Positions 39,712-53,521 of a DNA stretch of 64,000 nucleotides are shown in pieces. The first letter of the stretch is position 1. Each line of letters starts with the position of its first letter. Source of the stretch: Flavobacteriales bacterium (GTDB lineage Bacteria > Bacteroidota > Bacteroidia > Flavobacteriales_F > PHOS-HE28); NCBI GenBank assembly GCA_016721005.1, contig JADKJM010000019.1, forward strand, positions 323,747-387,746, read 5' to 3'. Below the pieces are notes generated by a model. That model made no database searches, was not told where the DNA came from, and saw nothing but the letters and a program-made list of their open reading frames with translations. Position numbers and translations under genes: made by a program.

Positions 39712-42066
39712 TCAACGAACCACGAGCAGCTTCGTGTTGCACTTGTACAAGCCTTCGCGGTCACTGGAGAACACCATGTACACGCCCGTGGCCACGCGGT
39801 TGCCGCTCATGTCGTTCCCGTTCCAGATGGCTTGGCCACCCAACGAGGTGGTGCGATAGACCAGGTTTCCGCTCACGTCGGTGATCTTCACTTCGGAGTC
39901 GCGCACAAGACCCGTGATCGAAATGGGGCCGGTGTATGTTTCGCGAACCGGATTCGGGAAGATGGATGCGCAATTCGCATCATCCGCGCTTTCCACCGCA
40001 TCCGATCGGTAGCCGATGATCCCACGGTCCGTGCCGAAGAAGACCTCGCCGGTGATATCGTTGATCGCGATCGAGGTGATCGTGTTGCTGGGCAATGGAC
40101 TGTTCGTCTCGGTGAAGTGGTGGATCTGCGTGCGTCCATCGGCACTCACCAGGAAGGCGCCTCCGGTCTGGGTGCCGATCCATTTCCGGTTCGCTCCATC
40201 CACGGTGATCGCACTGACGAATTCGGTCTCGAGCAGGATCTGCACGTTGCCGCTCTGTTCGATAAGGATCTGTTGCGCGTCGTAGTTGCCTTCATTACTG
40301 AAGATGGCTGCCGGGTCGTAGAAAACAGCGATGCCCTTGCTCGTTCCCACCCAGATCTGGCCGTCCTTGTCCTCGGCGATGCTCAGGACATCCGGTGATG
40401 GAAGTCCACCTGTTCCGGGTGTGTTGTTGACCGCTTTGTACTGGTCGTCGCCAGTGTCGGAGATCGTGCCATTATCATTGAAGACCAACAGCGCATTGCC
40501 TCGCGGACGGATGATCCATTTGTACCCGTTGCTCGCCGCAAGGATCTCCGCGAGGAGAAGGTTACCGTTGAGCACCGAGCCGGGTGTGAAACTGTACCAT
40601 GTGCCGTTCCGCGTGCGAACGGAAATGGGCGCAGCGGCCCAAGCATTGGTCATCCATAGGTTCCCTCCTTGGTCATAGCTCAAGCCGCCCACGTTCACCT
40701 TGCCCGATCCATCATTGGTGACCACTCCGAGCGAACTGTTCCCTACTGTGTAGTTGGCAACGGGTACACGATCGCGGAACTCCAACAATGCATCATCCCA
40801 GCTTCCAGCAAAGGCGTGGTTCGGGTCGTCCGGATCCACGGCCACGCAGATGAAATCGTTCATGGCACCTGCAAAAGCATTCCCGCCGGCCATGGTCGGA
40901 TCATTGTCCGGTTTCGTGGTCCGCCATTCCTCGTCGACGAAATGATGCACGCCGTCCTTGAGAAAGGTATTGCCCCAATTCCCGGAAGGGCTTCCAGCAG
41001 CAACATACACAGCGCCTCCGCGTGAATCCATGCGGTATACACTTGCGTTCAGCGGTCCATTGGGTCTCACGGTCGTGCCCAGTTCTCCCCCATCGGCGCG
41101 CGCAAGCCCAGCGAACCGGTCAGCGACCCATAGGTAGCCATTGGAAGAGCGGATCGAACGCGCAGGAATGGCCGGGACCGATCCATATGCCGTGGTCTGG
41201 CTGATGAATTGTTCGTTCGGGCCGAAGGTCCCGATGTCGTATTCGTGGGAGAAGACAATGAACTGTCCATCCGCCGAAACACGCATGTCGTGGTTCCTTC
41301 GCCCTTGGATCTGCGAGAACCGTTGCCACGTGTTATCGGGTCGAAGGACAAGCACGGTGTCGGTGTCATCACTGGTCTTCCGGAAGTTGATGAAGGGGTG
41401 CCCTTGGAAGGTCTGGGCCAGATCGAACGGACCATTGGCCATGCCATCGCCCATGTCCGTCCGCTTACGCCAGCTGGTGAAGGCGGTCAGGTTGGGGGAA
41501 TTCCGTCCTGCGGTGTAGAGCCCGGTGCTCGTGGCCGCATAGATGGAGTCCGCACTGAAGGTGATCGCATTCACTTGCAACTGTCCACCATTGGGGCCGA
41601 TGAACCAGGTCTCCTTCACCTCGCGGCGCGCCAGATCCACCACCACAATACCAAAGCCACAGCCGAGGTAGGCCGTGGTTCCTTCCTGGTGCACCGAATA
41701 GATGGCCTTGTCGCCAAGGATCGAGCTGCGCTTGATGTCGCCCATGTTGAAACTACGCTCGCCTTCCACGAGATCCAAGTTCCCATTGCCGTAATACACG
41801 ATCAGCGTATGCAGTTCCTGGTTCCACGCCAACCCGCGGATGTCCACATCGTTCAGCGCATTCGTCTTGTTGATCCGGTCGATCTCGCCGGTTGATGGAT
41901 CGAAGCGGAACAGGCCGTTGGCCGTGGCACAATAAGCCTTTCCATCACCTTCCACCACGTCGATCATCCGCAGGTACGGGAAGTGATCCCGCCAGGCGCC
42001 GATGGGTGTCTGGCTAAAACCGGCCAGGGAGAGCGTCACGAAAAGGACGGAGAGATAACGATGCAT
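39712..42066 (-). CDS. PorZ-like T9SS protein: two-component-regulator-propeller (Reg_prop) repeats plus a type-A T9SS C-terminal sorting domain
   Basis: Signal peptide (…LSVLFVTLSLAGFSQ); many Reg_prop-like repeats (…AYCATANGLFRFDPSTGE…, …SIYAATSTGLYTAG…, …IWVGTSKGIAVFYDP…). C-terminal …SIFPNPVRETYTGPISITGL…TGVYMVFSSDREGLYKCNTKLLVVR is a Por_Secre_tail. ATG at 42066 (the ORF-track start is an upstream GTG). Confidence 0.6.
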   Translation of the reverse strand: MHRYLSVLFVTLSLAGFSQTPIGAWRDHFPYLRMIDVVEGDGKAYCATANGLFRFDPSTGEIDRINKTNALNDVDIRGLAWNQELHTLIVYYGNGNLDLVEGERSFNMGDIKRSSILGDKAIYSVHQEGTTAYLGCGFGIVVVDLARREVKETWFIGPNGGQLQVNAITFSADSIYAATSTGLYTAGRNSPNLTAFTSWRKRTDMGDGMANGPFDLAQTFQGHPFINFRKTSDDTDTVLVLRPDNTWQRFSQIQGRRNHDMRVSADGQFIVFSHEYDIGTFGPNEQFISQTTAYGSVPAIPARSIRSSNGYLWVADRFAGLARADGGELGTTVRPNGPLNASVYRMDSRGGAVYVAAGSPSGNWGNTFLKDGVHHFVDEEWRTTKPDNDPTMAGGNAFAGAMNDFICVAVDPDDPNHAFAGSWDDALLEFRDRVPVANYTVGNSSLGVVTNDGSGKVNVGGLSYDQGGNLWMTNAWAAAPISVRTRNGTWYSFTPGSVLNGNLLLAEILAASNGYKWIIRPRGNALLVFNDNGTISDTGDDQYKAVNNTPGTGGLPSPDVLSIAEDKDGQIWVGTSKGIAVFYDPAAIFSNEGNYDAQQILIEQSGNVQILLETEFVSAITVDGANRKWIGTQTGGAFLVSADGRTQIHHFTETNSPLPSNTITSIAINDITGEVFFGTDRGIIGYRSDAVESADDANCASIFPNPVRETYTGPISITGLVRDSEVKITDVSGNLVYRTTSLGGQAIWNGNDMSGNRVATGVYMVFSSDREGLYKCNTKLLVVR

Positions 42067-42146
42067 CACGTTCGGTTCAAGGGTTCGGGCACGCGTTCAA
42101 CGCCAAATCGGGCCGATCCGTATGGGCCAAGGTAGATCCGGGAAGG

Positions 42147-44599: not shown

Positions 44600-44702
44600 G
44601 TCGGCACAAAATTAACATCCCCTACCCGGTATGGCGCATTCCTGCTCAGGATGGGCTTTAGGCGGGGTGAGAAATGGGCTGTGCCGATAGTACTTTGGAC
44701 GC

Positions 44703-46262
44703 ATGTACAGAACACTACTTCTGCCACTGGCTTTGGTGTTTCATGTCGTTCTACGCGCTCAATGCGGCGCCTGTGCCATCGGCGACACCTGCACGGTCGA
44801 TCCACCCTTACCGACTGTTTGCCCGGCGATCACACCGGAGGGAACCGTAGGTGTACCCTATGAAGTGGATGTGACCTTCTGGATCCCCCCATCCTTTCCG
44901 GAGCCGACCACGAATTTGAATGTGGTCGTCAGCCAGATCGTGCTCAACAGCTTGGAGAATGTGCCTCTCGGGCTGACCTATCAAGCCAGCAGCCCCGACC
45001 TGACGTACTACCCCCAGATCAACCCCTTTGGTTGTGTGCGCGTTTGTGGAACCCCGATGGTCGCCGGTTCGGATACGATCTTCATCCATGCCACAGCGAC
45101 TGCGACGGTTGGTGGAGTAGGCACTACCCAGGATTATGATCTACCGATCCCGATCCTCATCCACCCAGCGGCACTGGACACCGCTCCGGACTTCAGCATT
45201 TCCGCGACCACTGGTTGTCCACCGCTCACGGTGTCCTTCGACCCTTTGATCAACGCGCCAGGGTTGACGAGCAGTTACAATTGGAACTTCGGCAACGGCA
45301 ACACCTTCGTCGGAGCAACGCCACCCGACCAGACCTATACCGGCGTCGGCGACCACATCGTCAGCCTTCAGACCACGGTAACTGTTCCGGTGCTTACACA
45401 ACTCACTGTTTCCAACATCAACAATAACTGGTGCGGCGACCTCGACGAGCCGAATATTCCGATCGTGGGATGTGTTGGACAACCCGATCTGTACTTCACG
45501 ATCACCGACGCTCAATATGGACTGAGCAGAAGTGTCACCGTGAACAATACGCAAAGCCACACCTGGAACAACCTGTCCATCCCGCTCACGTTCCCTCCAT
45601 TCACCCTGCGCGTGTATGACCAGGACGCCGTGAGCGCTGATGATCTGCTGGGCACGTTCCAATTCACAAACTCCGGGAACTTCTCCTTCAACCAAGGCGG
45701 TACCGCTGGTCAGGGTGTTGTTCAAATACAGACCGTACAGGTCTTCAACTACTCGGATACCATCACCGTGCTCCCCGCGCCGAACACCACGATCACCTTC
45801 AACGGAAGCGTACTGTGTGCTTTTGACCAGGGTCTTGTCGGGTACGAGTGGTCCCTTAACAGTGTGGTGCTGCCTGACGAACAAGGACCCTGCGTGCTTG
45901 CGTCCAACGGCCAATGGTCGGTCACGGGAACGAATTCCTTCGGGTGTACATCCACCTCGAATTACCAGGTCATCGGGATGGGATTGAGCGAATACGGAGC
46001 AGGATCAGGACTCGATCTGTTCCCGGTTCCGAACAGCGGACGATTCACCGTGCGTTTGCGTGATCGAACATCGAATGCACGCATCCTGTTGCGGGTCTTC
46101 GACGCCGTTGGCGCGTTGGTATATGAAGAGCGCGTGAATGGCGCTATTCCGGAAGGTGGGTCGGTTGTCGATCTCTCTGGTGTCGCCGCCGGATCCTACA
46201 CGCTGCGCGTGGATGACGGAACTCGTGCGCTGACCAAAGCGTTCGTGGTCCGCCCGCACTAG
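44703..46262 (+). CDS. T9SS type-A cargo protein: signal peptide, Cys-rich N-terminal module, PKD domain, C2-like beta-sandwich motif, Por_Secre_tail CTD (paralog of 47364..49136)
   Basis: PKD signature …SATTGCPPLTVSFDP…YNWNFGNGNT…PPDQTYTGVGDHIVSLQTTV. CTD …LDLFPVPNSGRFTVRL…LLRVFDAVGALVYEERV…VDLSGVAAGSYTLRVDDGTRALTKAFVV. Confidence 0.75.
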   Translation: MYRTLLLPLALVFHVVLRAQCGACAIGDTCTVDPPLPTVCPAITPEGTVGVPYEVDVTFWIPPSFPEPTTNLNVVVSQIVLNSLENVPLGLTYQASSPDLTYYPQINPFGCVRVCGTPMVAGSDTIFIHATATATVGGVGTTQDYDLPIPILIHPAALDTAPDFSISATTGCPPLTVSFDPLINAPGLTSSYNWNFGNGNTFVGATPPDQTYTGVGDHIVSLQTTVTVPVLTQLTVSNINNNWCGDLDEPNIPIVGCVGQPDLYFTITDAQYGLSRSVTVNNTQSHTWNNLSIPLTFPPFTLRVYDQDAVSADDLLGTFQFTNSGNFSFNQGGTAGQGVVQIQTVQVFNYSDTITVLPAPNTTITFNGSVLCAFDQGLVGYEWSLNSVVLPDEQGPCVLASNGQWSVTGTNSFGCTSTSNYQVIGMGLSEYGAGSGLDLFPVPNSGRFTVRLRDRTSNARILLRVFDAVGALVYEERVNGAIPEGGSVVDLSGVAAGSYTLRVDDGTRALTKAFVVRPH

Positions 46263-46321
46263 AAAACCCGCTGCGGTCCACTCGGCTAATTTCGCCGACC
46301 TCACGGCTGACCCGTGGTTCG

Positions 46322-47329
46322 ATGTCCTCCCCGCGCGTAACCGTCCTGACCACCTTGTACAACAAGGGGCCCTTCGTGGAGCAGGCGGTGCGCAGCATCC
46401 TGGACGGATCATTCGGCGACTTCGAGCTTCTCATCGTGGATGATGCGAGTACCGATGATGGGCTCGAGCGGACTCGTCGTTTCACGGACCCGCGCATACG
46501 GATACTGACGAGTGCCGAGAATACCGGACGTGCAGCGGCGGCCAACCGCGGATATGATGCGGCACGCGGGGAATACGTCGCAGTGCTCGACGCCGACGAC
46601 GTCGCGCATCCCGAACGCTTGGCGGAACAGATCACCTTTCTCGAAGCGCATCCGGACGTCGGTGTTTGCGGGAGCTATGCACAAACTTTCGGGGTTCGTG
46701 ATCATGTGGCCACATGGCCGACCACGGATGAAGAGGCGCGCGGACTGTTGCTCTTTCAGGACCCGCTGCTGTACGGCTCCTCCATGATCCGCAGGAGTGT
46801 TCTGGAGGAGAACGGGATCAGGTGCCTCTCCGATTGGCGCACGCCCGGCATGGATTATCTCTTTCTGATCGCCATCGCCAAACACACGCGCACCGCGACC
46901 ATACCGGAACCCTTGATGAGCTATCGGTTGGGTGATCAGAATTTTCGTCATGGCCACGACCTCATTGAAGTCCGCGCAAAGATCTACCGGGAGGTTTTCC
47001 GTTTCTATAACATCCCGGCGAGCGAGGAGGAGATCGCGCTTCAGTTGCTCTTCCACCGCCTCTACCGCGAACTTCCGGACGCACGGACGATCCGATCACT
47101 CTTCCGCTGGGCGGCGAAGCTCAAGACCTTCAACAAGGAGCACCGGCTTTTCACAAGCGCTGTGTTCGAAGCACGCCTGCAACAAGAGTTGGGGCGCTGG
47201 TACTATGTGCTCGCAGACCATGTACTATGGCCTTCACTCACGCACCTTTGGCTGATGGGTGGATGGCCCGGTGGTCGTTTGGCCTACTTGGTGAGATCAC
47301 GCCTGAGCCGTCTGTTCCGTAAGCCGTAG
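46322..47329 (+). CDS. Glycosyltransferase family 2
   Basis: VTVLTTLYNKGPFVEQAVRSILDGSFGDFELLIVDDASTDDG…VAVLDADDVAHPERL are GT2 (GT-A fold) DxD-type motifs. Confidence 0.85.
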   Translation: MSSPRVTVLTTLYNKGPFVEQAVRSILDGSFGDFELLIVDDASTDDGLERTRRFTDPRIRILTSAENTGRAAAANRGYDAARGEYVAVLDADDVAHPERLAEQITFLEAHPDVGVCGSYAQTFGVRDHVATWPTTDEEARGLLLFQDPLLYGSSMIRRSVLEENGIRCLSDWRTPGMDYLFLIAIAKHTRTATIPEPLMSYRLGDQNFRHGHDLIEVRAKIYREVFRFYNIPASEEEIALQLLFHRLYRELPDARTIRSLFRWAAKLKTFNKEHRLFTSAVFEARLQQELGRWYYVLADHVLWPSLTHLWLMGGWPGGRLAYLVRSRLSRLFRKP

Positions 47330-47363
47330 TCGACCTACCTTGCCTTCCAACCCAAGCTCGCCC

Positions 47364-49136
47364 ATGACACCATTCCTACGCGCACTCGTGCTCGCCCTTA
47401 CGGCTGCCCTTCTCGCTGATCCCTCCATGGCACAATGTGATGGCTGTGTGCCCGATCTGAGTTGCACATCAAGTCCGGCCTTCCCTACGCTGTGTCCTGC
47501 AACTGCGCCGGACGCAATAGCGGGCGAATACTACCAGGTGGACTTCACCTTCTGGATGCCCGCGACGTTCGCGGATCCCGGGTCAGGCTTTACCGTGGAC
47601 CTGTTGCAACTCACGATCACCGGTGTCTCGGGTCTTCCGTTCGGGCTGGCTTTCACCGCTAGTGAACCGAGCGGCGTGTATTATCCACCGGACAATGAGT
47701 ACGGCTGTGCACGGGTGTGCGGGACCCCGATCGGCCCCGGCATCTACACGGTGGACATCGCGGTCCTTGCGCACGTGAGTGCCAGCGGGATCGAGCTCGA
47801 TGTGCCGCAGACGCTTTCTACTGTGATCACTGTGTTGCCCGGAAGCGGCGGCAATACCAGCTTTTCCTACACGCCGACGGCTGGTTGCGGAAGTGTGACC
47901 ACTTCTTTTCAAGCCTTGATCGACGCCAGCCCTGCTCCGATGAGCTACGCTTGGGATCTCGGCAACGGCGTCACCAGTACATCGCCCAACCCACCTGCGC
48001 AGACCTACAATGGAGCGGGTAGCTATGAGGTGTTCCTCCAGACCACGATCGGTGGTTATGTATTGAACGCTGTGAATGTCACCGGCACCAATACCAACTG
48101 GTGCGGTGATGTCGAAGAGCCCAGCTTGCCCATCATCGGGTGTACGGGGTCGCCGGATCTGTATTTCGTTCTTACAAATAGTGGCGGCGGCGCATACACA
48201 TCGAGCACGGTGGATAACACCACCACGGCTAGCTGGTCGGAACTGGGTATCCTGTTGAACAGCCCTCCGTACTCGCTCTCGATCTACGACGAGGATGTGG
48301 TCAGTGGCGATGACCTGCTCGGCACCTACAACATCCCCGCGAATGGCGCGGGGACCTACTTCATCAATGTGGCTGGCGGCACCACCGGCAGCCTTGTGAT
48401 CACCAACGAACCGCAGCAGGTATTCCTGGACAGCGCGTTGGTCACGGTGTTCTCCGTGCCGGATGTGTCGTTGATCGAGAACGCGACGACCGGGGAACTG
48501 TGTGCCCAGGGCGAAGGCCTCGTAGGTTACGCGTGGCTGTTCAATGGGGTGGTGGTTCCCGATGTCACCTCCGAGTGTTACATGCCGACCGGACCCGGTT
48601 TGTGGCAGGTCGTCGGTACGAACGGGTTCGGTTGCACCGACTCCAGCAATGTCGTCGTGGTCTGCCCGGTATTCGAGATCGTTCGGAACGGGAACGTGCT
48701 CTTCGTTCCAAGCAGTTACCTCGCGTATGCCTGGACCTTTAATGGCTCGCCCCTCAGCGGCAATGATCCGTTCATCTTCCTACAGGGTGATGGCACATAC
48801 ACCGTTACGGTTGATGCCGGCAATGGCTGCATCATTGTTTCCTCCTTCGTGTGGAGCACCGTTGGAATTGAAGAGGCGGACTCCGCTGTTCCTCGTATGG
48901 AACTCTTTCCGAATCCGAACGATGGTGCCTTCACGATCGTGGCAGAGGGTGTCGGTTCATCAGGCGCTTACATCGAACTGATGGATATGACCGGCCGCGT
49001 GATCTGGCAAACGCGATCGAATTCGAACGGGGGTCTGGTCCGTGTGAATGCGACCGTGCATGCTGTGGCCGGAGCCTATACGGTCAGGCTCCATGATGGT
49101 GATCATATTCGTACCACACGGTGTATCATCCGATGA
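47364..49136 (+). CDS. T9SS type-A cargo protein, paralog of 44703..46262 with the same architecture (Cys-rich N-module, PKD, C2-like motif, extra beta-domains, CTD)
   Basis: Shared blocks AQCxxC…CPAxxP…YxVDxTFWxP…GCxRVCGTP and NWCGD[LV][DE]EP[NS][IL]PI[VI]GCxGxPDLYF…[VI]YD[QE]D[AV]VS[AG]DDLLGT. CTD …MELFPNPNDGAFTIVAEG…IELMDMTGRVIWQT…VAGAYTVRLHDGDHIRTTRCII. Start at the ATG at 47364 (the ORF-track start is an upstream TTG). Confidence 0.75.
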   Translation: MTPFLRALVLALTAALLADPSMAQCDGCVPDLSCTSSPAFPTLCPATAPDAIAGEYYQVDFTFWMPATFADPGSGFTVDLLQLTITGVSGLPFGLAFTASEPSGVYYPPDNEYGCARVCGTPIGPGIYTVDIAVLAHVSASGIELDVPQTLSTVITVLPGSGGNTSFSYTPTAGCGSVTTSFQALIDASPAPMSYAWDLGNGVTSTSPNPPAQTYNGAGSYEVFLQTTIGGYVLNAVNVTGTNTNWCGDVEEPSLPIIGCTGSPDLYFVLTNSGGGAYTSSTVDNTTTASWSELGILLNSPPYSLSIYDEDVVSGDDLLGTYNIPANGAGTYFINVAGGTTGSLVITNEPQQVFLDSALVTVFSVPDVSLIENATTGELCAQGEGLVGYAWLFNGVVVPDVTSECYMPTGPGLWQVVGTNGFGCTDSSNVVVVCPVFEIVRNGNVLFVPSSYLAYAWTFNGSPLSGNDPFIFLQGDGTYTVTVDAGNGCIIVSSFVWSTVGIEEADSAVPRMELFPNPNDGAFTIVAEGVGSSGAYIELMDMTGRVIWQTRSNSNGGLVRVNATVHAVAGAYTVRLHDGDHIRTTRCIIR

Positions 49137-49242
49137 TCTGAACCGCGCGAGAGCCCGCGTGTACCGGCTGTCGCCCCTACCCCCTTCCGTAGCTTTGTTC
49201 CGCAACAAGGCTCCGGCGTGAGCGTTGTAACGCAGGCGCATC

Positions 49243-52200
49243 ATGCATAGCGATTACGATTACCTGCTGGCCAAGCTCGACACCTTCATCCGGAAGTACT
49301 ACAAGGACAGATTGATCCGGGGTGCGCTCTACAGCGTGGGTTTGGTGGTGGTGGTTTTCCTGCTCGCCGCGTCCTTGGAAGCCGTTGGGCATTTCGGGGT
49401 TTCAGCGCGCACCGCGCTCTTCTGGGTCTCCGTCGCCGCTATGGGAGTCATCATCGGTCGCTTCGTGATCCTTCCGGTGATCAAGCTCATGCGCTTGGGC
49501 GCGATCATTTCGCACACAGAAGCGGCCCGCATCGTTGGTGAACATTTCGGCGACGTGCGCGACAAGCTCTTGAACACGCTTCAACTGCGCTCCCAAGGTG
49601 TTGCTCAAGGCGGCAGTCGTGCGTTGATCGAGGCTGCGGTGGCCCAGCGCAGCAAGGAGCTTGGGCCGGTCCCGTTCACCAATGCCATCGATCTTCGGAG
49701 GAATACCAAGTACCTGCGTTACGCACTGCCTCCGCTAGCGGTTCTCGCAATCCTATTGTTCGCCGCCCCGTCATTCATTACCGGCTCCGCCAAGCGCCTG
49801 ATCGAACATGGAAAGGAGTTCATCCCAGAGGCGCCGTTCCGCTTCGTGATCCTCAATGACACGCTTGAGGTGGCCGAGGACCAGGACTTCGAATTGGTGG
49901 TTGAACTCACTGGTGACGCCATTCCGCAGCAGGTCGATCTGGAGGTCGATGGTCAGCATATACCACTCGTGAAGCAGAGCACTGTTCGATTCCTGCACCG
50001 CTTCCGCAATGTTCGGAAGGATGTTGATTTCCGTGTTTCGGCGGAAGGATTCCATTCTGTGGGATACACGTTGAAGGCCGTTCCACATCCGCTATTGCTC
50101 GGCGTTGACCTCACTCTATCCTATCCGCCCTACCTCGGCATGCCGGAGGAGAGTGTCAGGAACTCAGGAGATCTGACCATTCCTGCTGGGACCAGGATCA
50201 CGTGGAATATCGGAGCCCGTAGTGCGGACCGGATGCAGCTGGCTTTCGACGACACCTCTTACTCCACCCCACCTTCCGCAGGCTCCGACGATGCACCTGT
50301 TTTCCGATTCTCCAGACGCCTGTTACAAAGTCGGACATACCAACTCACTCCTTCCTTCGGTGGTCGAACCGCGGCCGAGGCTGTGCGCCACCGACTGGAG
50401 GTCATACCGGATCTTTATCCGAGCATACAGGTTGCCTCGCGTACCGACAGCTCCGCACTCAAGCGCCTCTTCTTCAATGGGGAGGTCAGTGATGACCATG
50501 GGGTTCGTCGGCTGTTGTTCCATTACCGCTTCGTCCAAGGCGGGGATAGTGTTCCCGTTGATCGGCGCAGTGGAGTGATGGAACTCCGCATTGACCCGCG
50601 CAGCACGCGACAGGAGTTCTTTCATGGCTGGGACCTGTATGACCTCACCATCATGCCCGGGGATCGGATCGAGCATTGGTTCGAGGTGTGGGATAACGAC
50701 GGCGTGAATGGCAGCAAGAGCACCCGCACCGCTGCGCAAGTCTTTGCGGCACCCACGACCAGGGAACTGATGGAGAAGCGCGATGCCAGCAGCGAAGCCA
50801 TTCAAGGGACACTTCGAGAGAATATCCGGGAGGCCCAGGACCTTCAGCGCGAATTGGACAAGCTCCGGCGTGAACTCCTCGAGAAGAAGGAGTCCGACTG
50901 GAAGGACAAACAGAAATTGCAGGAGGTCCTGGAACGGCAAAAGCAATTGCAGGAGCGGATCGAGCACAATTCCGAACAGCTACGCCAAAGCCAGCAGGAA
51001 CAGCGGGAGTTCAGTCCGATGGATGAGCGACTAATGGAGAAACAACAGCGGATCCAAGAGCTCTTCGAGAACGTTCTGAGCGAGGAGATGAAGGAGTTGT
51101 ACCGCAAGGTCGAGGAGATGCTTCAGCAGGTCGACAAGGAGAAACTTCAGGACCAGCTCCGGGAGATGAAGCTCGGCCAGGAGGACATGGAGAAGGAGAT
51201 GGATCGTGCCTTGGAACTCTTCAAACGGATGGAGGTGGAGCAGAAGGCCGAGGATCTTGCCGAACAATTGCGCGAGATGGCGGGGCGGCAGGAGGAATTA
51301 TCCGAGAAGAGCAAAGAGGGAAGGGAGGAAAGCGAAGCTCTCAAGCAACAACAAGATGAGCTGAACAAGGAATTCGAGGCCTTGCGTGAGCAGATGGATG
51401 AGTTGCAGAAGAAGAACGAGGCCTTGGAGGAACCCATGAACATTCCGGATACCGACGTCCAGGAGCAGGGGATCCAGGAGGACCAGAAGCAGAGTAGTGA
51501 TCAGTTAGGCAAGGGCCAGAAGCAGAAGGCGGGTGGTGCACAGAAAAGCGCCGCCGAGAAAATGGAACAGCTCGCCTTTCAGATGGAAAGCGCTATGGGT
51601 GGCGGGGAGCAGGAGCAACAAGAAGAGGACATGGACGCATTGCGCCAGCTCTTGGAGAACATCGTACAGCTCAGCTTCGATCAAGAGGCCCTGATGAATG
51701 ACCTCGCTGGTACAAGTGTTCGCGATCCGCGATTCACGGAGCACAGCCGTACGCAGCGCGAGCTTCGCGATGATGCGAAAGTGATCGAGGATTCCCTGTT
51801 CGCCTTGAGCAAGCGCGTTCCTCAACTGCAGAGCATCGTGAACCGGGAGATGAACGCGGTGAACGACAACATGGACGAGGCGCGTAGAATGCTTGGTGAA
51901 GCCCGTGCCAATGAGCGATTCAAGCCCATGGCGACGGATAAGCAACAACACGCCATGACCTCACTGAACAATCTGGCGCTGCTGCTGGATGAGGCCCTAC
52001 AGCAAATGATGCAACAGATGATGGCCCAGAGCAAGCCCGGCAGTGGGAGTTGCAAAAAGCCCGGGGGCACGGGCAGTGGCCAGGGGAAGAAGCCCAGTAT
52101 GTCGAAAATGAAAGCCCAACAAGAAGCGCTGCAGAAACAATTGGAGCAGATGCGCAAAGCCATGCAGGAGGGAAAGGCGAAGGGCGAGAAGCCGGGTCAG

Positions 52201-52659
52201 CAGAACCCGGGTAGTATGGGAATGCCGGGCATGAGCCAGCAATTGGTACAGCTCGCTGCTCAGCAAGCCGCGATCAGGAAGGAGATGCAGCGCATGGGAC
52301 AGGAGATGAACAAGGATGGAAGCGGCGCTGGCAATGAGTTGAATCGGCTTGCGCAACAGATGGAACAGCAGGAGCGCGACATCGTCAACCGCAACATCAC
52401 TCCGGAGACCATGCATCGCCAACAGGACATCATGACAAGGCTCCTGGAGCATGAGAAGGCCGAGCGGGAGCGCGAGCTCGATCAAAAGCGGACGAGCAAC
52501 GAGGGCCGCGAACAACCACCTACCGATCCGGCAAGAGTATTCGAGCAACAACGACGCAAAGCCCGCGAAGCAGAATTGCTTCGCACCCTTCCTCCGGGGC
52601 TGAAGCCGTACTACCGGGATCGCGTGAACGCCTATTTCGGTACTTTTGACCGACCCTGA
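49243..52659 (+). CDS. Large membrane-anchored coiled-coil protein (1138 aa) resembling Bacteroidota DUF4175-type proteins: N-terminal TM hairpin, beta-rich middle region, ~500-aa Glu/Gln/Lys-rich coiled coil, conserved C-terminal region
   Basis: Two N-terminal TM helices (…GALYSVGLVVVVFLLAASL… and …ALFWVSVAAMGVIIGRFVIL…). Long low-complexity E/Q/K/R/L heptad region 50780..52500. The DUF4175 family assignment is from memory of similar ~1100-aa Bacteroidota proteins next to an RsbW-like gene. Confidence 0.6.
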   Translation: MHSDYDYLLAKLDTFIRKYYKDRLIRGALYSVGLVVVVFLLAASLEAVGHFGVSARTALFWVSVAAMGVIIGRFVILPVIKLMRLGAIISHTEAARIVGEHFGDVRDKLLNTLQLRSQGVAQGGSRALIEAAVAQRSKELGPVPFTNAIDLRRNTKYLRYALPPLAVLAILLFAAPSFITGSAKRLIEHGKEFIPEAPFRFVILNDTLEVAEDQDFELVVELTGDAIPQQVDLEVDGQHIPLVKQSTVRFLHRFRNVRKDVDFRVSAEGFHSVGYTLKAVPHPLLLGVDLTLSYPPYLGMPEESVRNSGDLTIPAGTRITWNIGARSADRMQLAFDDTSYSTPPSAGSDDAPVFRFSRRLLQSRTYQLTPSFGGRTAAEAVRHRLEVIPDLYPSIQVASRTDSSALKRLFFNGEVSDDHGVRRLLFHYRFVQGGDSVPVDRRSGVMELRIDPRSTRQEFFHGWDLYDLTIMPGDRIEHWFEVWDNDGVNGSKSTRTAAQVFAAPTTRELMEKRDASSEAIQGTLRENIREAQDLQRELDKLRRELLEKKESDWKDKQKLQEVLERQKQLQERIEHNSEQLRQSQQEQREFSPMDERLMEKQQRIQELFENVLSEEMKELYRKVEEMLQQVDKEKLQDQLREMKLGQEDMEKEMDRALELFKRMEVEQKAEDLAEQLREMAGRQEELSEKSKEGREESEALKQQQDELNKEFEALREQMDELQKKNEALEEPMNIPDTDVQEQGIQEDQKQSSDQLGKGQKQKAGGAQKSAAEKMEQLAFQMESAMGGGEQEQQEEDMDALRQLLENIVQLSFDQEALMNDLAGTSVRDPRFTEHSRTQRELRDDAKVIEDSLFALSKRVPQLQSIVNREMNAVNDNMDEARRMLGEARANERFKPMATDKQQHAMTSLNNLALLLDEALQQMMQQMMAQSKPGSGSCKKPGGTGSGQGKKPSMSKMKAQQEALQKQLEQMRKAMQEGKAKGEKPGQQNPGSMGMPGMSQQLVQLAAQQAAIRKEMQRMGQEMNKDGSGAGNELNRLAQQMEQQERDIVNRNITPETMHRQQDIMTRLLEHEKAERERELDQKRTSNEGREQPPTDPARVFEQQRRKAREAELLRTLPPGLKPYYRDRVNAYFGTFDRP

Positions 52660-52664
52660 AGATC

Positions 52665-53099
52665 ATGGCTGCTATTGAAGAGCTGGCGTTCACCGAGCGG
52701 ATCGACTTCCCCGCGAAAGCAGAGAACATCGCATTGGCGGAAAAGCTGATCGATGAAGCCTGTTCGCGTTATGGCGTTCACGAGAGCCTCTATGGCAACA
52801 TTCTTATCGCCCTCACCGAGGCAGTGAATAACGCGATCCACCATGGCAACGCGCTTGATCCAACAAAAACAGTCACCCTTGGTTATGAGGTGAAGGATGA
52901 TCGGATCGTGTTCATGGTCCAGGACCAAGGCGCTGGATTTGACTTCAACCACCTCCCCGACCCTACGGACCCGCAGAACCTGGAAAAGCCGCATGGTCGT
53001 GGGGTTTTCCTGATGCGGGCGCTGGCGGACTCCATTGAGTTCCGCGACAATGGCGCAACGGTGGCCCTTGCTTTTAGCAGGCAGCCCGTCACGGATTGA
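52665..53099 (+). CDS. Anti-sigma regulatory factor-like ATP-binding protein (RsbW/SpoIIAB-type HATPase serine-protein kinase)
   Basis: 144 aa; …NILIALTEAVNNAIHHGN (N-box), …VQDQGAGFDF (G1-box), …HGRGVFLMRALADSIEF (G2-box region). Confidence 0.7.
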   Translation: MAAIEELAFTERIDFPAKAENIALAEKLIDEACSRYGVHESLYGNILIALTEAVNNAIHHGNALDPTKTVTLGYEVKDDRIVFMVQDQGAGFDFNHLPDPTDPQNLEKPHGRGVFLMRALADSIEFRDNGATVALAFSRQPVTD

Positions 53100-53101
53100 C
53101 C

Positions 53102-53521
53102 ATGTCCGTCATATCGTTCAGCGCTCACCGTGTGCCGAACATATTTCGGGATCGGGAACGGCTGCGCAAATGGATCCACTGTATCGCAAAGGACCACGGC
53201 ATCGGTGTCGGTGAACTGAATTTCGTCCTCCTCGGAGAGAGCGAAATGCTTGAGTACAATCGCCGTTACCTTCAACACGACGACCATACGGATGTGATCG
53301 CATTCGACGGACAAACCGGAACCGGGGTAAGTGGGGATGTGCTGATCAGCTCACCTCGTATTCGCGAGAATGCAGCCACTTTCGGCACTCCTGTCCAACA
53401 AGAACTACGACGTGTGATGGTCCACGCGCTCCTTCATCTTCTAGGGCACAGCGACAAGAGCCGAGCAAAGAAGCTCGCGATGCAGATCTTGGAGGATAAA
53501 TACTTGGAACGGTACCGCTAG
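53102..53521 (+). CDS. ybeY: rRNA maturation RNase YbeY
   Basis: Metal-binding motif HALLHLLGHSD (H-x-x-x-H-x-x-x-x-x-H). ~140 aa. Start at the ATG at 53102 (the ORF-track start is an upstream TTG). Confidence 0.85.
   Translation: MSVISFSAHRVPNIFRDRERLRKWIHCIAKDHGIGVGELNFVLLGESEMLEYNRRYLQHDDHTDVIAFDGQTGTGVSGDVLISSPRIRENAATFGTPVQQELRRVMVHALLHLLGHSDKSRAKKLAMQILEDKYLERYR

What the first reader, a model, noticed from the sequence alone, without database searches (positions are those of the whole stretch)
44703..49136. Paralogous T9SS cargo proteins with a novel Cys-rich N-module and a eukaryote-like C2-type motif, flanking a GT2 glycosyltransferase
Genes 44703..46262 and 47364..49136 share the same multi-domain plan: signal peptide; a conserved six-Cys N-terminal module (AQCxxC…CPAxxP…YxVDxTFWxP…GCxRVCGTP); a PKD domain; a strongly conserved block NWCGD[LV][DE]EP[NS][IL]PI[VI]GCxGxPDLYF…PP[FY][ST]L[RS][VI]YD[QE]D[AV]VS[AG]DDLLGT; and a T9SS CTD. 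The conserved block follows the motif logic of C2 (Ca2+/lipid-binding) beta-sandwich domains (SDPYVK … V-x-D-x-D-x-x-s-x-D-D-x-I-G), which are rare in bacteria. A GT2 glycosyltransferase sits between the paralogs, and the DUF4175-like protein, RsbW-like kinase and ybeY follow on the same strand with short gaps (44703..53521). This is possibly one envelope-remodelling operon of unknown function.
Basis: partly seen in the sequence, partly recalled or inferred. Interest (0 to 1): 0.55.

Follow-up and report, generated by a model that had tools for sequence, protein, structure and literature searches.

The report
Bacterial secreted proteins carrying C2 domains
Two neighbouring genes of an uncultured wastewater Flavobacteriales bacterium encode secreted surface proteins that contain a genuine C2 domain, the calcium-dependent membrane-binding module best known from eukaryotic synaptotagmin and perforin; but they are not part of one large operon with their neighbours.

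Summary
Genes 44703..46262 (519 aa) and 47364..49136 (590 aa) are paralogs (41% identity, E=3e-101) with the same plan: signal peptide, six-Cys N-module, PKD domain, conserved block, small Ig-like module(s), T9SS type-A tail.

The "novel" N-module is an Ig-like sandwich with no close solved relative, so it is not a new fold.

The operon idea is not supported. Gene A and the GT2 gene occur only in the closest clade (11/70 and 10/70 loci). Gene B–DUF4175 adjacency decays with divergence (12/13 to 0/6). Genes A, B and DUF4175 each have their own conserved Bacteroidota promoter-like box, of different types.

Most likely these are Ca2+-loaded cell-surface adhesin-like proteins. Lipid binding is inferred, not shown. 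I rate this a new, unannotated bacterial member of a known domain family, of moderate interest.

The parts
44691..44698 (+). Promoter-like -7 box TACTTTGG (TAnnTTGR) ending 4 nt before the gene A ATG; predicts a leaderless gene A mRNA
   Evidence: coordinates. 9/11 gene A orthologs have the same box within 15 nt of the ATG, against 0.3% background. Box placement at -12..-5 is taken from PMC9723704.
44703..46262 (+). Gene A, 519 aa: T9SS cargo paralog (signal peptide, Ig-like N-module, PKD, C2, one Ig-like module, CTD)
44703..44759 (+). Gene A signal peptide (aa 1-19); predicted cleavage exposes Gln20 (Bacteroidetes Q-rule)
   Evidence: Sequence. Gln conserved in 171/173 relatives. Q-rule from PMC5837995.
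44760..45188 (+). Gene A six-Cys N-module (aa 20-162): Ig-like beta-sandwich
   Evidence: Member of alignment A3. Model of the gene B copy: pLDDT 89.7. Only generic Ig-like fold matches.
45189..45377 (+). Gene A PKD domain (aa 163-225)
   Evidence: Pfam PKD_4 E=5e-5, 23.7 bits, below the 27-bit cut-off. Aligns to the gene B PKD domain.
45378..45740 (+). Gene A C2 domain (aa 226-346); acidic cluster D246, D262, D306, D308, D314
   Evidence: hmmsearch with the family profile: E=1.7e-52.
45741..45998 (+). Gene A single small Cys-containing Ig-like module (aa 347-432)
   Evidence: Weak Cadherin_5 and K319L-PKD hits only. Aligns to gene B module 1.
45999..46259 (+). Gene A linker plus T9SS type-A C-terminal domain (Pfam match aa 439-516)
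   Evidence: PF18962 27.3 bits against a 27-bit cut-off. TIGR04183 22.2 bits against a 23-bit cut-off.
46322..47329 (+). GT2 glycosyltransferase, 335 aa. A clade-specific insert between the paralogs; no evidence ties it to them functionally.
   Evidence: PF00535 E=1e-29. Only generic sub-threshold NCBIfam hits. Present directly upstream of gene B in 10/70 loci, all with gene B >=60% identical.
47336..47343 (+). Promoter-like box TACCTTGC (SM5-type TAnnTTGY) in the 34-nt GT2-gene B gap, 20 nt before the gene B ATG
   Evidence: 19/77 gene B orthologs (10/15 in the closest clade) have TAnnTTGY ending 8-32 nt before the ATG, against 0.4% background. SM5 motif from PMC9723704.
47364..49136 (+). Gene B, 590 aa: T9SS cargo paralog (signal peptide, Ig-like N-module, PKD, C2, two Ig-like modules, CTD)
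47364..47432 (+). Gene B signal peptide (aa 1-23); predicted cleavage exposes Gln24
47433..47861 (+). Gene B six-Cys N-module (aa 24-166): Ig-like beta-sandwich with no close solved relative
47862..48047 (+). Gene B PKD domain (aa 167-228)
   Evidence: PF00801 31 bits (cut-off 23.5) and PF18911 30.7 bits (cut-off 27)
48048..48419 (+). Gene B C2 domain (aa 229-352). Type-II strand order. Long loop 1 (NWCGDVEEP...GC) carrying the conserved Cys pair C247/C260. Acidic cluster D249, D265, D309, D311, D317 plus S314.
48420..48878 (+). Gene B two small Cys-containing Ig-like modules (aa 353-505); gene A has one
   Evidence: Internal repeat seen in BLASTP. Weak PKD and BiPBP_C hits.
48879..49133 (+). 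Gene B linker plus T9SS type-A C-terminal domain (Pfam match aa 514-589)
   Evidence: PF18962 32 bits (cut-off 27). TIGR04183 46.6 bits (cut-off 23).
49190..49197 (+). sigma-A-type -7 box TAGCTTTG in the gene B-DUF4175 gap; marks a separate transcription start for the DUF4175 / RsbW-like / ybeY unit
   Evidence: TAnnTTTG present in 28/38 orthologous gaps, almost always 48-57 nt before the start, against 1.3% for random segments. 29/45 by the second count. Consensus from PMC9723704.

Best explanation
Genes A and B encode two paralogous, modular cell-surface proteins of an uncultured Flavobacteriales bacterium. [quoted passage not shown]

Each protein has the same plan: a Sec signal peptide whose cleavage exposes an invariant Gln; a Cys-rich Ig-like N-domain; a PKD domain; a true C2 domain; one (A) or two (B) small Ig-like modules; and a type-A T9SS C-terminal domain.

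The C2 domain has the circularly permuted type-II strand order (as in PLC-delta, cPLA2 and perforin). It keeps four of the five canonical Ca2+-ligand aspartates and the loop-3 serine. Its loop 1 is unusually long, carries an invariant W-C-G-D-x-E-E motif and a conserved Cys pair that probably forms a disulfide.

Shown here: paralogy, domain identities, C2 homology and fold, conservation of the acidic cluster, and the family's distribution.

Inferred pathway: Sec export; Gln cyclisation; disulfide formation in the periplasm; T9SS translocation; removal of the CTD by the PorU sortase with anchoring to anionic LPS.

Inferred function: at extracellular Ca2+ levels the C2 tip is constitutively Ca2+-loaded, as in perforin. 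It then binds an anionic surface, most likely phospholipid membranes or anionic polymers of other cells or of the floc matrix. The proteins would therefore act as Ca2+-dependent adhesins.

The genes are not part of one operon with GT2, DUF4175, the RsbW-like gene and ybeY. Genes A, B and DUF4175 each carry their own conserved promoter-like box.
For: Paralogy: E=3e-101.

Export and surface location: T9SS CTD and PKD domains found by Pfam and NCBIfam. PorZ is encoded 2.6 kb upstream. Gln follows the signal peptide in 171/173 relatives (Q-rule, PMC5837995).

C2 homology by sequence: the family profile hits only C2 domains in the PDB, e.g. myoferlin 4e-12, otoferlin 6e-9, synaptotagmin-1 1.4e-6, plant CAR 2e-6, perforin 4e-4. 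49/72 members hit Pfam C2 individually. The exhaustive hmmsearch of 1.84e9 proteins retrieves canonical multi-C2 proteins, including ones from Anaeramoeba and Pyxidicula. Six sampled multi-C2 hits score E=4e-78 to 3e-148 against Pfam C2.

Ca2+ site: the HMM alignment to synaptotagmin-1 places D265, D309, D311 and D317 on D178, D230, D232 and D238, and S314 on S235 (Syt1 numbering from my knowledge). D265, D311 and D317 are present in 186/186 relatives, D309 in 184/186 and D249 in 180/186.

Adhesin-like context: family variants swap in SprB repeats, fn3, Big_9, cadherin-like and Ig_7 modules while keeping PKD-C2 and the CTD. The N-module's best structural matches include the SraP and SrpA adhesins, pilins and dystroglycan. 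The gene B box is of the SM5 type, which in F. psychrophilum drives the SprB adhesin operon and porU.

Separate transcription.
Against: No experiment or model coordinates were available, so Ca2+ coordination geometry and exposure of loop hydrophobic residues could not be checked.

The first canonical Asp (Syt1 D172) aligns to an invariant Gly (G259). A full 2-3 Ca2+ site would need D249, E251 or E252 from the extended loop to substitute.

Every member scores below Pfam's C2 gathering threshold on its own (best 20.8 bits against 22).

C2 domains can be Ca2+-independent or can bind proteins instead of lipids. The syNOS bacterial C2 regulates an enzyme rather than targeting membranes.

The ligand is unknown and no neighbouring gene hints at it.

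The gene A CTD and PKD scores are borderline.

The promoter boxes are sequence motifs. No transcription start site was measured, and read-through transcription is not excluded.
Confidence: 0.6

Rival explanations
1. The C2 domain is real but is not a lipid or membrane binder. It could serve as a Ca2+-stiffened structural spacer in a stalk of Ig-like domains. Alternatively it could bind a protein or glycan ligand, as many non-canonical C2 domains do.
For: The domain sits mid-chain between PKD and Ig-like modules, like Ca2+-rigidified repeats in other bacterial adhesins (my knowledge). The first canonical Asp is replaced by Gly. The only structurally characterised bacterial C2 found here (syNOS) is a regulatory domain, not a membrane-targeting one. 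Extracellular Ca2+ is not a signal, so Ca2+ may be purely structural.
Against: Four of five canonical ligand positions and Ser314 are invariant across relatives down to about 25% identity, where the rest of the domain drifts. Loop 1 keeps an invariant Trp and a hydrophobic [LIV]-P-[LIF]-[IVL] stretch, as in membrane-inserting C2 loops. The best structural matches are Ca2+/lipid-binding C2s: perforin type, E-Syt and cPLA2. The same C2 subtype also sits at the extreme N-terminus of another secreted protein (P0240), which is not a spacer position.
Confidence: 0.27
2. One reading: genes A, GT2, B, DUF4175, RsbW-like and ybeY form one co-transcribed envelope-remodelling operon, with the glycosyltransferase acting with or on the two cargo proteins.
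For: All six genes lie on the same strand with short gaps or overlap (59, 34, 106 and 5 nt, then a 4-nt overlap). No terminator-like hairpin lies in the gaps. A-GT2-B is kept in about 10 related MAGs, and gene B-DUF4175 adjacency in 32/67 loci. GT2 itself lacks a canonical box, so it could be co-transcribed with gene A.
Against: GT2 and gene A are found only where gene B is >=60% identical (10/70 and 11/70 loci). One locus has A-B without GT2, and one has GT2-B without A. DUF4175 adjacency falls from 12/13 to 11/19, 9/29 and 0/6 with divergence, together with the unrelated upstream PorZ-folB-gltX block. That is the pattern of decaying general synteny. Conserved promoter-like boxes of different types precede A, B and DUF4175 at fixed distances, against background rates of 0.2-3.5%. 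YbeY is an rRNA-maturation RNase equivalog. In about 30 loci gene B has unrelated neighbours.
Confidence: 0.07
3. The C2 domain was acquired from a protist by horizontal transfer. The proteins would then act as eukaryote-mimicking factors aimed at eukaryotic host or grazer membranes, not as general adhesins.
For: Outside Bacteroidota, the best matches of the family profile are multi-C2 proteins of Amoebozoa and Metamonada and similar metagenomic proteins. Single repeats score up to 46 bits and share DPYF, W and yD.D..S.DDllG. C2 domains are described as 'typically not found in prokaryotes'. The host bacteria live in activated sludge, which is rich in protists (source names of the MAGs; ecology from my knowledge).
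Against: No phylogeny was made, so the direction of transfer is untested. The family is broad and old within Bacteroidota: Flavobacteriales, Chitinophagales and Bacteroidia labels, down to 25-37% identity, with several architectures. It also has its own derived features, the long Cys-bearing loop 1 and the G259 replacement. Composition around the two genes (0.572-0.601 G+C) is close to that of neighbouring parts of the window.
Confidence: 0.12
4. The conserved block is not a C2 domain but a continuation of the PKD/Ig fold, or another beta-sandwich such as a carbohydrate-binding module. On this reading the motif resemblance is coincidental.
For: Each single-sequence Pfam C2 hit is below the gathering threshold. 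Three of 72 members also weakly hit the PPC domain.
Confidence: 0.02

Closest known systems
Perforin-type C2 domains (mouse perforin C2, PDB 4y1s; fish perforin-like C2, PDB 3w56)
   Different: Sequence identity is only 16-23%. Here loop 1 is about 24 residues long and carries a conserved Cys pair and a W-C-G-D-x-E-E motif. The first canonical Asp is Gly. The domain is embedded in a bacterial Ig/PKD/T9SS-CTD protein with no pore-forming MACPF domain.
Synaptotagmin-1 C2A and ferlin / E-Syt C2 domains (Pfam PF00168)
   Same: These are the strongest sequence-profile matches. Loop 3 aligns without gaps: YDEDVVSGDDLLG against YDFDRFSKHDIIG, including Ser235. The DPY motif of the strand after loop 1 is kept as PDLY.
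   Different: Those are cytoplasmic eukaryotic Ca2+ sensors with type-I topology (synaptotagmin). The bacterial domain has one strand before loop 1 and three after loop 3, which is type-II order. It is extracellular, probably disulfide-bonded, and scores below the Pfam threshold.
syNOS C2 domain (Synechococcus nitric oxide synthase, PDB 9q05; PMC12922734)
   Different: syNOS C2 lacks the canonical Asp ligands, is cytoplasmic, and regulates enzyme domain dynamics. The family here keeps the Asp cluster and is secreted.
SprB-type and other modular T9SS surface adhesins of Bacteroidota
   Same: Shared features are the signal peptide with the Q-rule, strings of Ig-like, PKD and cadherin-like modules, and a C-terminal T9SS sorting domain. 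Family variants even contain SprB repeats. The gene B promoter box is of the SM5 type that drives sprB in F. psychrophilum.
   Different: These proteins are much smaller (520-590 aa). They carry a type-A rather than a type-B (CHU_C) tail. I found no report of a T9SS cargo with a C2 domain.
He_PIG / dystroglycan-type cadherin-like Ig domains (PF05345; SraP CDHL modules, PDB 4m02) — comparison for the N-module
   Different: The window's own copies do not hit He_PIG. Foldseek TM is <=0.47. A roughly 20-residue N-terminal extension holds four of the six conserved Cys.

Membership tests
C2 domain superfamily (Pfam PF00168 / clan C2) | Eight-stranded antiparallel beta-sandwich with the C2 fold | tested here: met
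C2 domain superfamily (Pfam PF00168 / clan C2) | Statistically significant sequence similarity to established C2 domains | tested here: met
   Profile of 72 members against PDB sequences: only C2 proteins, E down to 4e-12. Against 1.84e9 proteins: canonical multi-C2 proteins, E down to 6e-92. Caveat: single sequences stay below Pfam's 22-bit cut-off (best 20.8 bits; 49/72 hit at E<=1).
C2 domain superfamily (Pfam PF00168 / clan C2) | Ca2+-binding acidic cluster in loops 1 and 3 (five Asp in synaptotagmin-type domains) | tested here: inconclusive
   Four of five positions are conserved (D265, D309, D311, D317; 184-186 of 186), plus Ser314. The first position is an invariant Gly. D249, E251 and E252 in the extended loop 1 are candidate substitutes.
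C2 domain superfamily (Pfam PF00168 / clan C2) | Ca2+-dependent phospholipid or membrane binding | not testable with these tools
   Needs ITC and liposome or cell-binding assays with the oxidised recombinant domain.
T9SS type-A cargo | C-terminal Por_Secre_tail (TIGR04183 / PF18962) domain | tested here: met
   Gene B: PF18962 32 bits (cut-off 27) and TIGR04183 46.6 bits (cut-off 23). Gene A is borderline: PF18962 27.3 against 27, TIGR04183 22.2 against 23.
T9SS type-A cargo | N-terminal Sec signal peptide, and T9SS machinery in the same genome | tested here: met
   Hydrophobic N-termini ending A|Q in both proteins, with Gln conserved in 171/173 relatives. PorZ is encoded at 39712..42069 (PF21544 E=4e-32). 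No signal-peptide predictor was available; the cleavage site is inferred from the Q-rule (PMC5837995).
T9SS type-A cargo | T9SS-dependent secretion and CTD removal | not testable with these tools
   Needs proteomics of wild type against a T9SS mutant. The organism is uncultured.
PKD domain (PF00801 / PF18911) | Score above the Pfam gathering threshold | tested here: met
   Gene B: 31.0 bits (cut-off 23.5) and 30.7 bits (cut-off 27). Gene A is below threshold (23.7 against 27; 14.3 against 23.5) but is homologous by alignment to gene B.
He_PIG / dystroglycan-type cadherin-like Ig domain (PF05345) for the N-module | Significant match to the family model | tested here: not met
Single operon A-GT2-B-DUF4175-RsbW-ybeY | Gene order conserved across diverged genomes beyond general synteny | tested here: not met
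   GT2 in 10/70 loci and gene A in 11/70, only in the closest clade. DUF4175 adjacency 12/13, 11/19, 9/29, 0/6 with falling identity.
Single operon A-GT2-B-DUF4175-RsbW-ybeY | No internal promoters; one transcript | tested here: not met
   Conserved position-specific boxes: gene A 9/11 (TAnnTTGR), gene B 19/77 (TAnnTTGY; 10/15 in the closest clade), DUF4175 29/45 (TAnnTTTG), against 0.2-0.6% background. These are motifs only; transcripts were not measured.

The most novel reading that the evidence does not exclude
The 'NWCGD-type' C2 would be a Bacteroidota-wide extracellular Ca2+-dependent membrane-binding module. Uncultured Flavobacteriales would display it on their surface through T9SS to latch onto the membranes of other cells (protists, or prey or partner bacteria), as a bacterial counterpart of perforin or synaptotagmin targeting. 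Its relation to protist multi-C2 proteins would then record either an inter-domain transfer or a prokaryotic lineage close to the root of the eukaryotic C2 superfamily.
Probability: 0.15. Interest if true: 0.7.

Novelty: new member of a known kind. Interest (0 to 1): 0.45.

Why it matters
C2 domains are a hallmark of eukaryotic Ca2+-regulated membrane traffic and are described as typically absent from prokaryotes (PMC12922734).

This work finds a large family that no database annotates as C2. It comprises more than 250 clusters at 90% identity and several architectures in Flavobacteriales and other Bacteroidota. It keeps the canonical acidic cluster and is secreted by T9SS. Three things follow:

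- It gives a concrete functional handle (Ca2+-dependent surface binding) for abundant "hypothetical / PKD domain" surface proteins of wastewater and aquatic Flavobacteriales.
- It offers a tractable, probably disulfide-stabilised bacterial C2 for biophysics.
- It adds a prokaryotic clade that should be included when the origin of the C2 superfamily is analysed.

It also corrects an operon prediction. The comparative promoter-box analysis gives testable transcription start sites, including a predicted leaderless mRNA for gene A.

Tried and rejected
1. The search for related loci with the C2-only alignment A2 failed because no stretch was conserved enough. The full-length alignment A1 worked.
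2. The AFDB Foldseek library was not installed. Structural neighbours among predicted bacterial proteins could therefore not be surveyed.
4. The sigma-70 promoter and intrinsic-terminator scan gave counts equal to shuffled expectation and nothing in the gaps. It is uninformative for Bacteroidota, so I replaced it with TAnnTTTG / TAnnTTGY box analysis.
5. The strict TAnnTTTG motif is not enriched window-wide (10 found, 9.9 expected). Only the position-specific comparative test is meaningful.
6. Literature searches for bacterial or T9SS C2 domains found no relevant report except syNOS.
7. Model coordinates are not exposed by the tools. I could not measure the acidic-cluster geometry, the disulfide pairing or the exposure of Trp246.
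8. I considered a functional link between GT2 and the cargo (for example glycosylation) and rejected it for lack of conservation.
9. The origin of contig L081 (five consecutive C2-repeat ORFs) was left unresolved.

Full report
**1. Observation**

The mechanical ORF of gene B begins at TTG 47340. A database protein identical over all 590 aa supports the ATG at 47364.

BLASTP of A against B gives 41% identity over 412 residues, E=3e-101. A second, weaker alignment shows that gene B carries one extra copy of a ~70-aa module before the C-terminal domain.

Pfam finds the T9SS sorting domain and a PKD domain in both proteins. It finds nothing in the first ~165 residues.

The neighbours are as described:
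- GT2 (46322..47329)
- a DUF4175 protein (49243..52659)
- an RsbW-like HATPase_c_2 protein (52665..53099)
- YbeY (53096..53521)

**2. The family**

Gene B has more than 200 relatives and gene A about 55 of its own type. Those that carry a name are labelled as uncultured Flavobacteriales MAGs. They are annotated only as "T9SS type A sorting domain-containing", "PKD domain-containing" or "hypothetical". None carries a precomputed C2 annotation.

Eighty loci from GTDB species genomes are all MAGs. Many come from activated sludge. L001 is 95% identical to the window. A few distant relatives (32-37% identity) are labelled Chitinophagales or Bacteroidia.

In a 186-sequence alignment:
- The six N-module Cys are present in essentially every sequence that covers them.
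- Gln follows the signal peptide in 171/173 sequences. This is the Bacteroidetes Q-rule for signal peptidase I substrates (PMC5837995).

**3. The conserved block is a C2 domain**

I cut gene B residues 229-352 and the matching segments of 71 relatives into alignment A2. Four independent tests agree.

- *Profile against PDB sequences.* All of the top 40 matches, and most of the 60 listed, are C2 domains. Weak desmoglein matches appear only at E>=0.07. The best hits are myoferlin 4.4e-12, otoferlin 6.4e-9, synaptotagmin-1 1.4e-6, Arabidopsis CAR proteins 2e-6, dysferlin, a Trichomonas C2 and perforin C2.
- *Single members against Pfam.* 49 of 72 members hit PF00168 on their own. No other family is hit by more than five.
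- *Exhaustive hmmsearch of 1.84 billion representatives.* 1128 proteins reach E<=1e-3. Apart from the family itself, the best are giant multi-C2 proteins. Two of these are from Anaeramoeba ignava ("C2 domain-containing protein") and the amoebozoan Pyxidicula operculata. Six sampled multi-C2 hits score E=4e-78 to 3e-148 against Pfam C2.

It is not met.

**4. Anatomy of the C2 domain**

The model has one long strand before loop 1 and three strands after loop 3. By the established definition of C2 topologies (my knowledge), this is the type-II order of PLC-delta, cPLA2 and perforin, not the type-I order of synaptotagmin.

The HMMER alignment to synaptotagmin-1 is ungapped through loop 3: YDEDVVSGDDLLG against YDFDRFSKHDIIG. 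Using Syt1 numbering from my knowledge, the correspondences and their conservation in 186 relatives are:

| Gene B residue | Syt1 equivalent | Present in relatives |
|---|---|---|
| D265 (in PDLYF) | D178 (in DPYV) | 186/186 |
| D309 | D230 | 184/186 (the other two have Glu) |
| D311 | D232 | 186/186 |
| S314 | S235 | 179/186 |
| D317 | D238 | 186/186 |

The fifth canonical ligand (Syt1 D172) aligns with an invariant Gly, G259.

Loop 1 is about 24 residues long and carries several conserved features:
- a near-invariant W246-C247-G248-D249-x-E/D251-E252-P253 motif;
- a second Cys, C260, present in 160/186; another 21 sequences use an alternative three-Cys pattern, EEPxCNCGTPxIGTCPD;
- a hydrophobic [LIV]-P-[LIF]-[IVL] stretch.

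I infer a disulfide-stapled loop 1 that could supply the missing acidic ligand. Model coordinates are not exposed, so this could not be checked.

The closest non-family C2 repeats (P0187, P0188, P0199) share the core motifs. Their loop 1 is five residues shorter and has no Cys bridge.

**5. Other modules**

*N-module.* Gene B residues 24-166 fold confidently (pLDDT 89.7) into an all-beta domain. Their profile has no hit among PDB sequences. Fold searches give only generic Ig-like matches:
- Foldseek: TM<=0.47, to accessory domains of GH123 enzymes, pilins, and the SrpA and SraP adhesins.

Three of 45 homologs weakly hit He_PIG. The N-module is therefore an Ig-like sandwich, probably disulfide-stapled and distantly reminiscent of He_PIG / cadherin-like domains. 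It is an uncatalogued sequence family, not a new fold.

*Segments between C2 and the CTD.* These are small Cys-containing Ig-like modules, one in gene A and two in gene B, with only faint PKD, Cadherin_5 and BiPBP_C similarity.

*Variant architectures.* Family variants keep PKD-C2 and the CTD but insert SprB repeats, fn3, Big_9, cadherin-like or Ig_7 modules. The same Cys-bearing C2 subtype sits directly behind the signal peptide of P0240, a 1012-aa marine Bacteroidota protein. The C2 is thus a shuffled extracellular module.

**6. Genomic context and transcription**

I mapped the window's genes onto the 80 loci.

| Gene B identity to the window | DUF4175 directly downstream (assessable loci) |
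|---|---|
| >=60% | 12/13 |
| 50-60% | 11/19 |
| 40-50% | 9/29 |
| <40% | 0/6 |
| all | 32/67 |

- GT2 lies directly upstream of gene B in 10/70 assessable loci. A gene A-type paralog lies upstream in 11/70. All of these have gene B >=60% identical.
- L002 has A-B without GT2. L065 has GT2-B without A. Five loci carry a different gene B-like paralog without GT2.
- The divergently oriented PorZ-folB-gltX-acetyltransferase block is retained to a similar extent. This points to general local synteny, not a functional unit.
- Elsewhere gene B has unrelated neighbours.

The generic sigma-70 and terminator scan was uninformative. I therefore used the Bacteroidota -7 box. In F. psychrophilum the sigma-A consensus is TAnnTTTG at -12..-5. 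A distinct validated motif, SM5 (TAnnTTGY), drives the remFG-sprCDBF adhesin operon, porU and LPS genes (PMC9723704).

| Gene | Box in the window | Box type | Orthologs with the same box at the same place | Background |
|---|---|---|---|---|
| DUF4175 | TAGCTTTG, 49190-49197 | sigma-A, TAnnTTTG | 28/38 gaps; 29/45 by a second count | 1.3% |
| Gene B | TACCTTGC, 47336-47343, inside the 34-nt GT2-B gap | SM5, TAnnTTGY | 19/77; 10/15 in the closest clade | 0.4% |
| Gene A | TACTTTGG, 44691-44698 | TAnnTTGR | 9/11 | 0.3% |
| GT2 | none of the three canonical forms | – | 0/11 | – |

In the DUF4175 gaps the box almost always lies 48-57 nt before the start codon.

The gene A box ends 4 nt before the ATG. 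With the -12..-5 placement, the start site falls on the A of the ATG, so a leaderless mRNA is predicted.

GT2 may be co-transcribed with gene A. These are motifs, not measured start sites, and read-through is not excluded. Taken together with the synteny, they do not support a single A-to-ybeY envelope-remodelling operon. YbeY is a housekeeping rRNA-maturation RNase (TIGR00043, 83 bits).

**7. Mechanism**

*Shown:* domain identities, C2 homology and fold, the conserved acidic cluster, and the secretion signals.

*Inferred from established knowledge of Sec/SPI, the Q-rule and type-A T9SS cargo:*
- export by the Sec pathway;
- cyclisation of the N-terminal Gln;
- disulfide formation in the periplasm;
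- T9SS translocation;
- CTD cleavage by PorU and attachment to anionic LPS, which leaves the protein on the cell surface.

*Inferred function:* at extracellular Ca2+ levels the C2 tip is permanently Ca2+-loaded, as in perforin. It binds an anionic surface, either membrane phospholipid or an anionic polymer, so the proteins would act as Ca2+-dependent adhesins.

My confidence in each step is:
- about 0.93 that the block is a true C2 homolog;
- about 0.7 that it binds Ca2+;
- about 0.4 that the ligand is a lipid membrane.

The main rival is a structural or protein/glycan-binding C2.

**8. Comparison and novelty**

The closest knowns are perforin-type C2 domains by structure, and synaptotagmin, ferlin and E-Syt C2 domains by sequence. 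syNOS is the one structurally characterised bacterial C2 found here. It lacks the canonical Asp residues and regulates an enzyme. The syNOS paper calls C2 domains "typically not found in prokaryotes".

I found no report of a C2 domain in T9SS cargo.

The finding is a new, sizeable and unannotated bacterial member of a known domain family. It has a distinctive Cys-bearing long loop 1 and a novel architecture. It is not a new kind of system.

Whether the domain came from protists or represents an old bacterial lineage is open, because no phylogeny was made.

**9. Verdict**

| Item | Verdict |
|---|---|
| Observation | confirmed |
| C2 interpretation | supported |
| "Novel N-module" | only in the sequence-family sense |
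| Operon interpretation | not supported |
| Interest | 0.45 |

Noticed in passing
window 39712..42069 (-): The T9SS component PorZ (PF21544 E=4e-32, with its own CTD) is encoded 2.6 kb upstream of gene A. The PorZ-folB-gltX-acetyltransferase block stays next to gene B in many MAGs.
   Followed up: partly
window 44691..44705: The gene A promoter-like box TACTTTGG ends 4 nt before the ATG. With the -12..-5 placement of the Bacteroidota -7 box, the transcription start falls on the A of the ATG, so a leaderless mRNA is predicted. 9/11 orthologs look the same.
   Followed up: partly
window 47336..47343: The gene B box TACCTTGC is of the SM5 type (TAnnTTGY). In F. psychrophilum this type drives the SprB gliding-adhesin operon, porU and LPS genes. 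The downstream DUF4175 gene has a sigma-A-type TAGCTTTG box, which suggests different regulation.
   Followed up: partly
window 44760..44762 and 47433..47435 (Gln20 of A, Gln24 of B): An invariant Gln follows the predicted signal-peptide cleavage site (171/173 relatives). This fits the Bacteroidetes Q-rule (pyroglutamate N-terminus).
   Followed up: partly
C2 loop 1, gene B aa 247-260 (window 48102..48143); relatives P0056, P0073, P0093 and others: About 21 of 186 family members replace the C247...C260 pair by a three-Cys pattern, EEPxCNCGTPxIGTCPD. This implies an alternative disulfide arrangement in the same loop.
   Followed up: no
L082 6001..9039 (protein P0340 / P0240): A 1012-aa marine Bacteroidota protein (Tara and ENA samples) carries the same NWCGD-type C2 directly after its signal peptide. 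The remaining ~880 residues have no Pfam match. A neighbouring gene carries a CHU_C (type-B T9SS) tail.
   Followed up: partly
L081 1..8819 (protein P0187): A metagenomic contig on which five consecutive same-strand ORFs all consist of C2 repeats (P0187 has 14). It is probably one giant multi-C2 gene. Whether it is from a protist or a bacterium is unresolved. These repeats are the closest non-family relatives of the bacterial C2.
   Followed up: partly
window 52641..53099: A TACTTTTG box lies 17 nt before the RsbW-like start, inside the 3' end of the DUF4175 gene. The RsbW-like gene and ybeY overlap by 4 nt (53096..53099), which suggests translational coupling of an anti-sigma-type kinase with a housekeeping RNase.
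   Followed up: no
window 49243..52659: The DUF4175 protein (1138 aa) has N-terminal hydrophobic segments and a very long Glu/Lys/Gln-rich, coiled-coil-like central region. It has no NCBIfam match. It is followed by the RsbW-like gene and ybeY in nearly every locus that contains it.
   Followed up: no
L016 8987..9805 and L022 9052..9873: In MAGs where gene B is not next to DUF4175, it is preceded by an ORF whose sequence looks MurQ-like (my reading of the translation; not scanned). This shows that gene B has moved between contexts.
   Followed up: no
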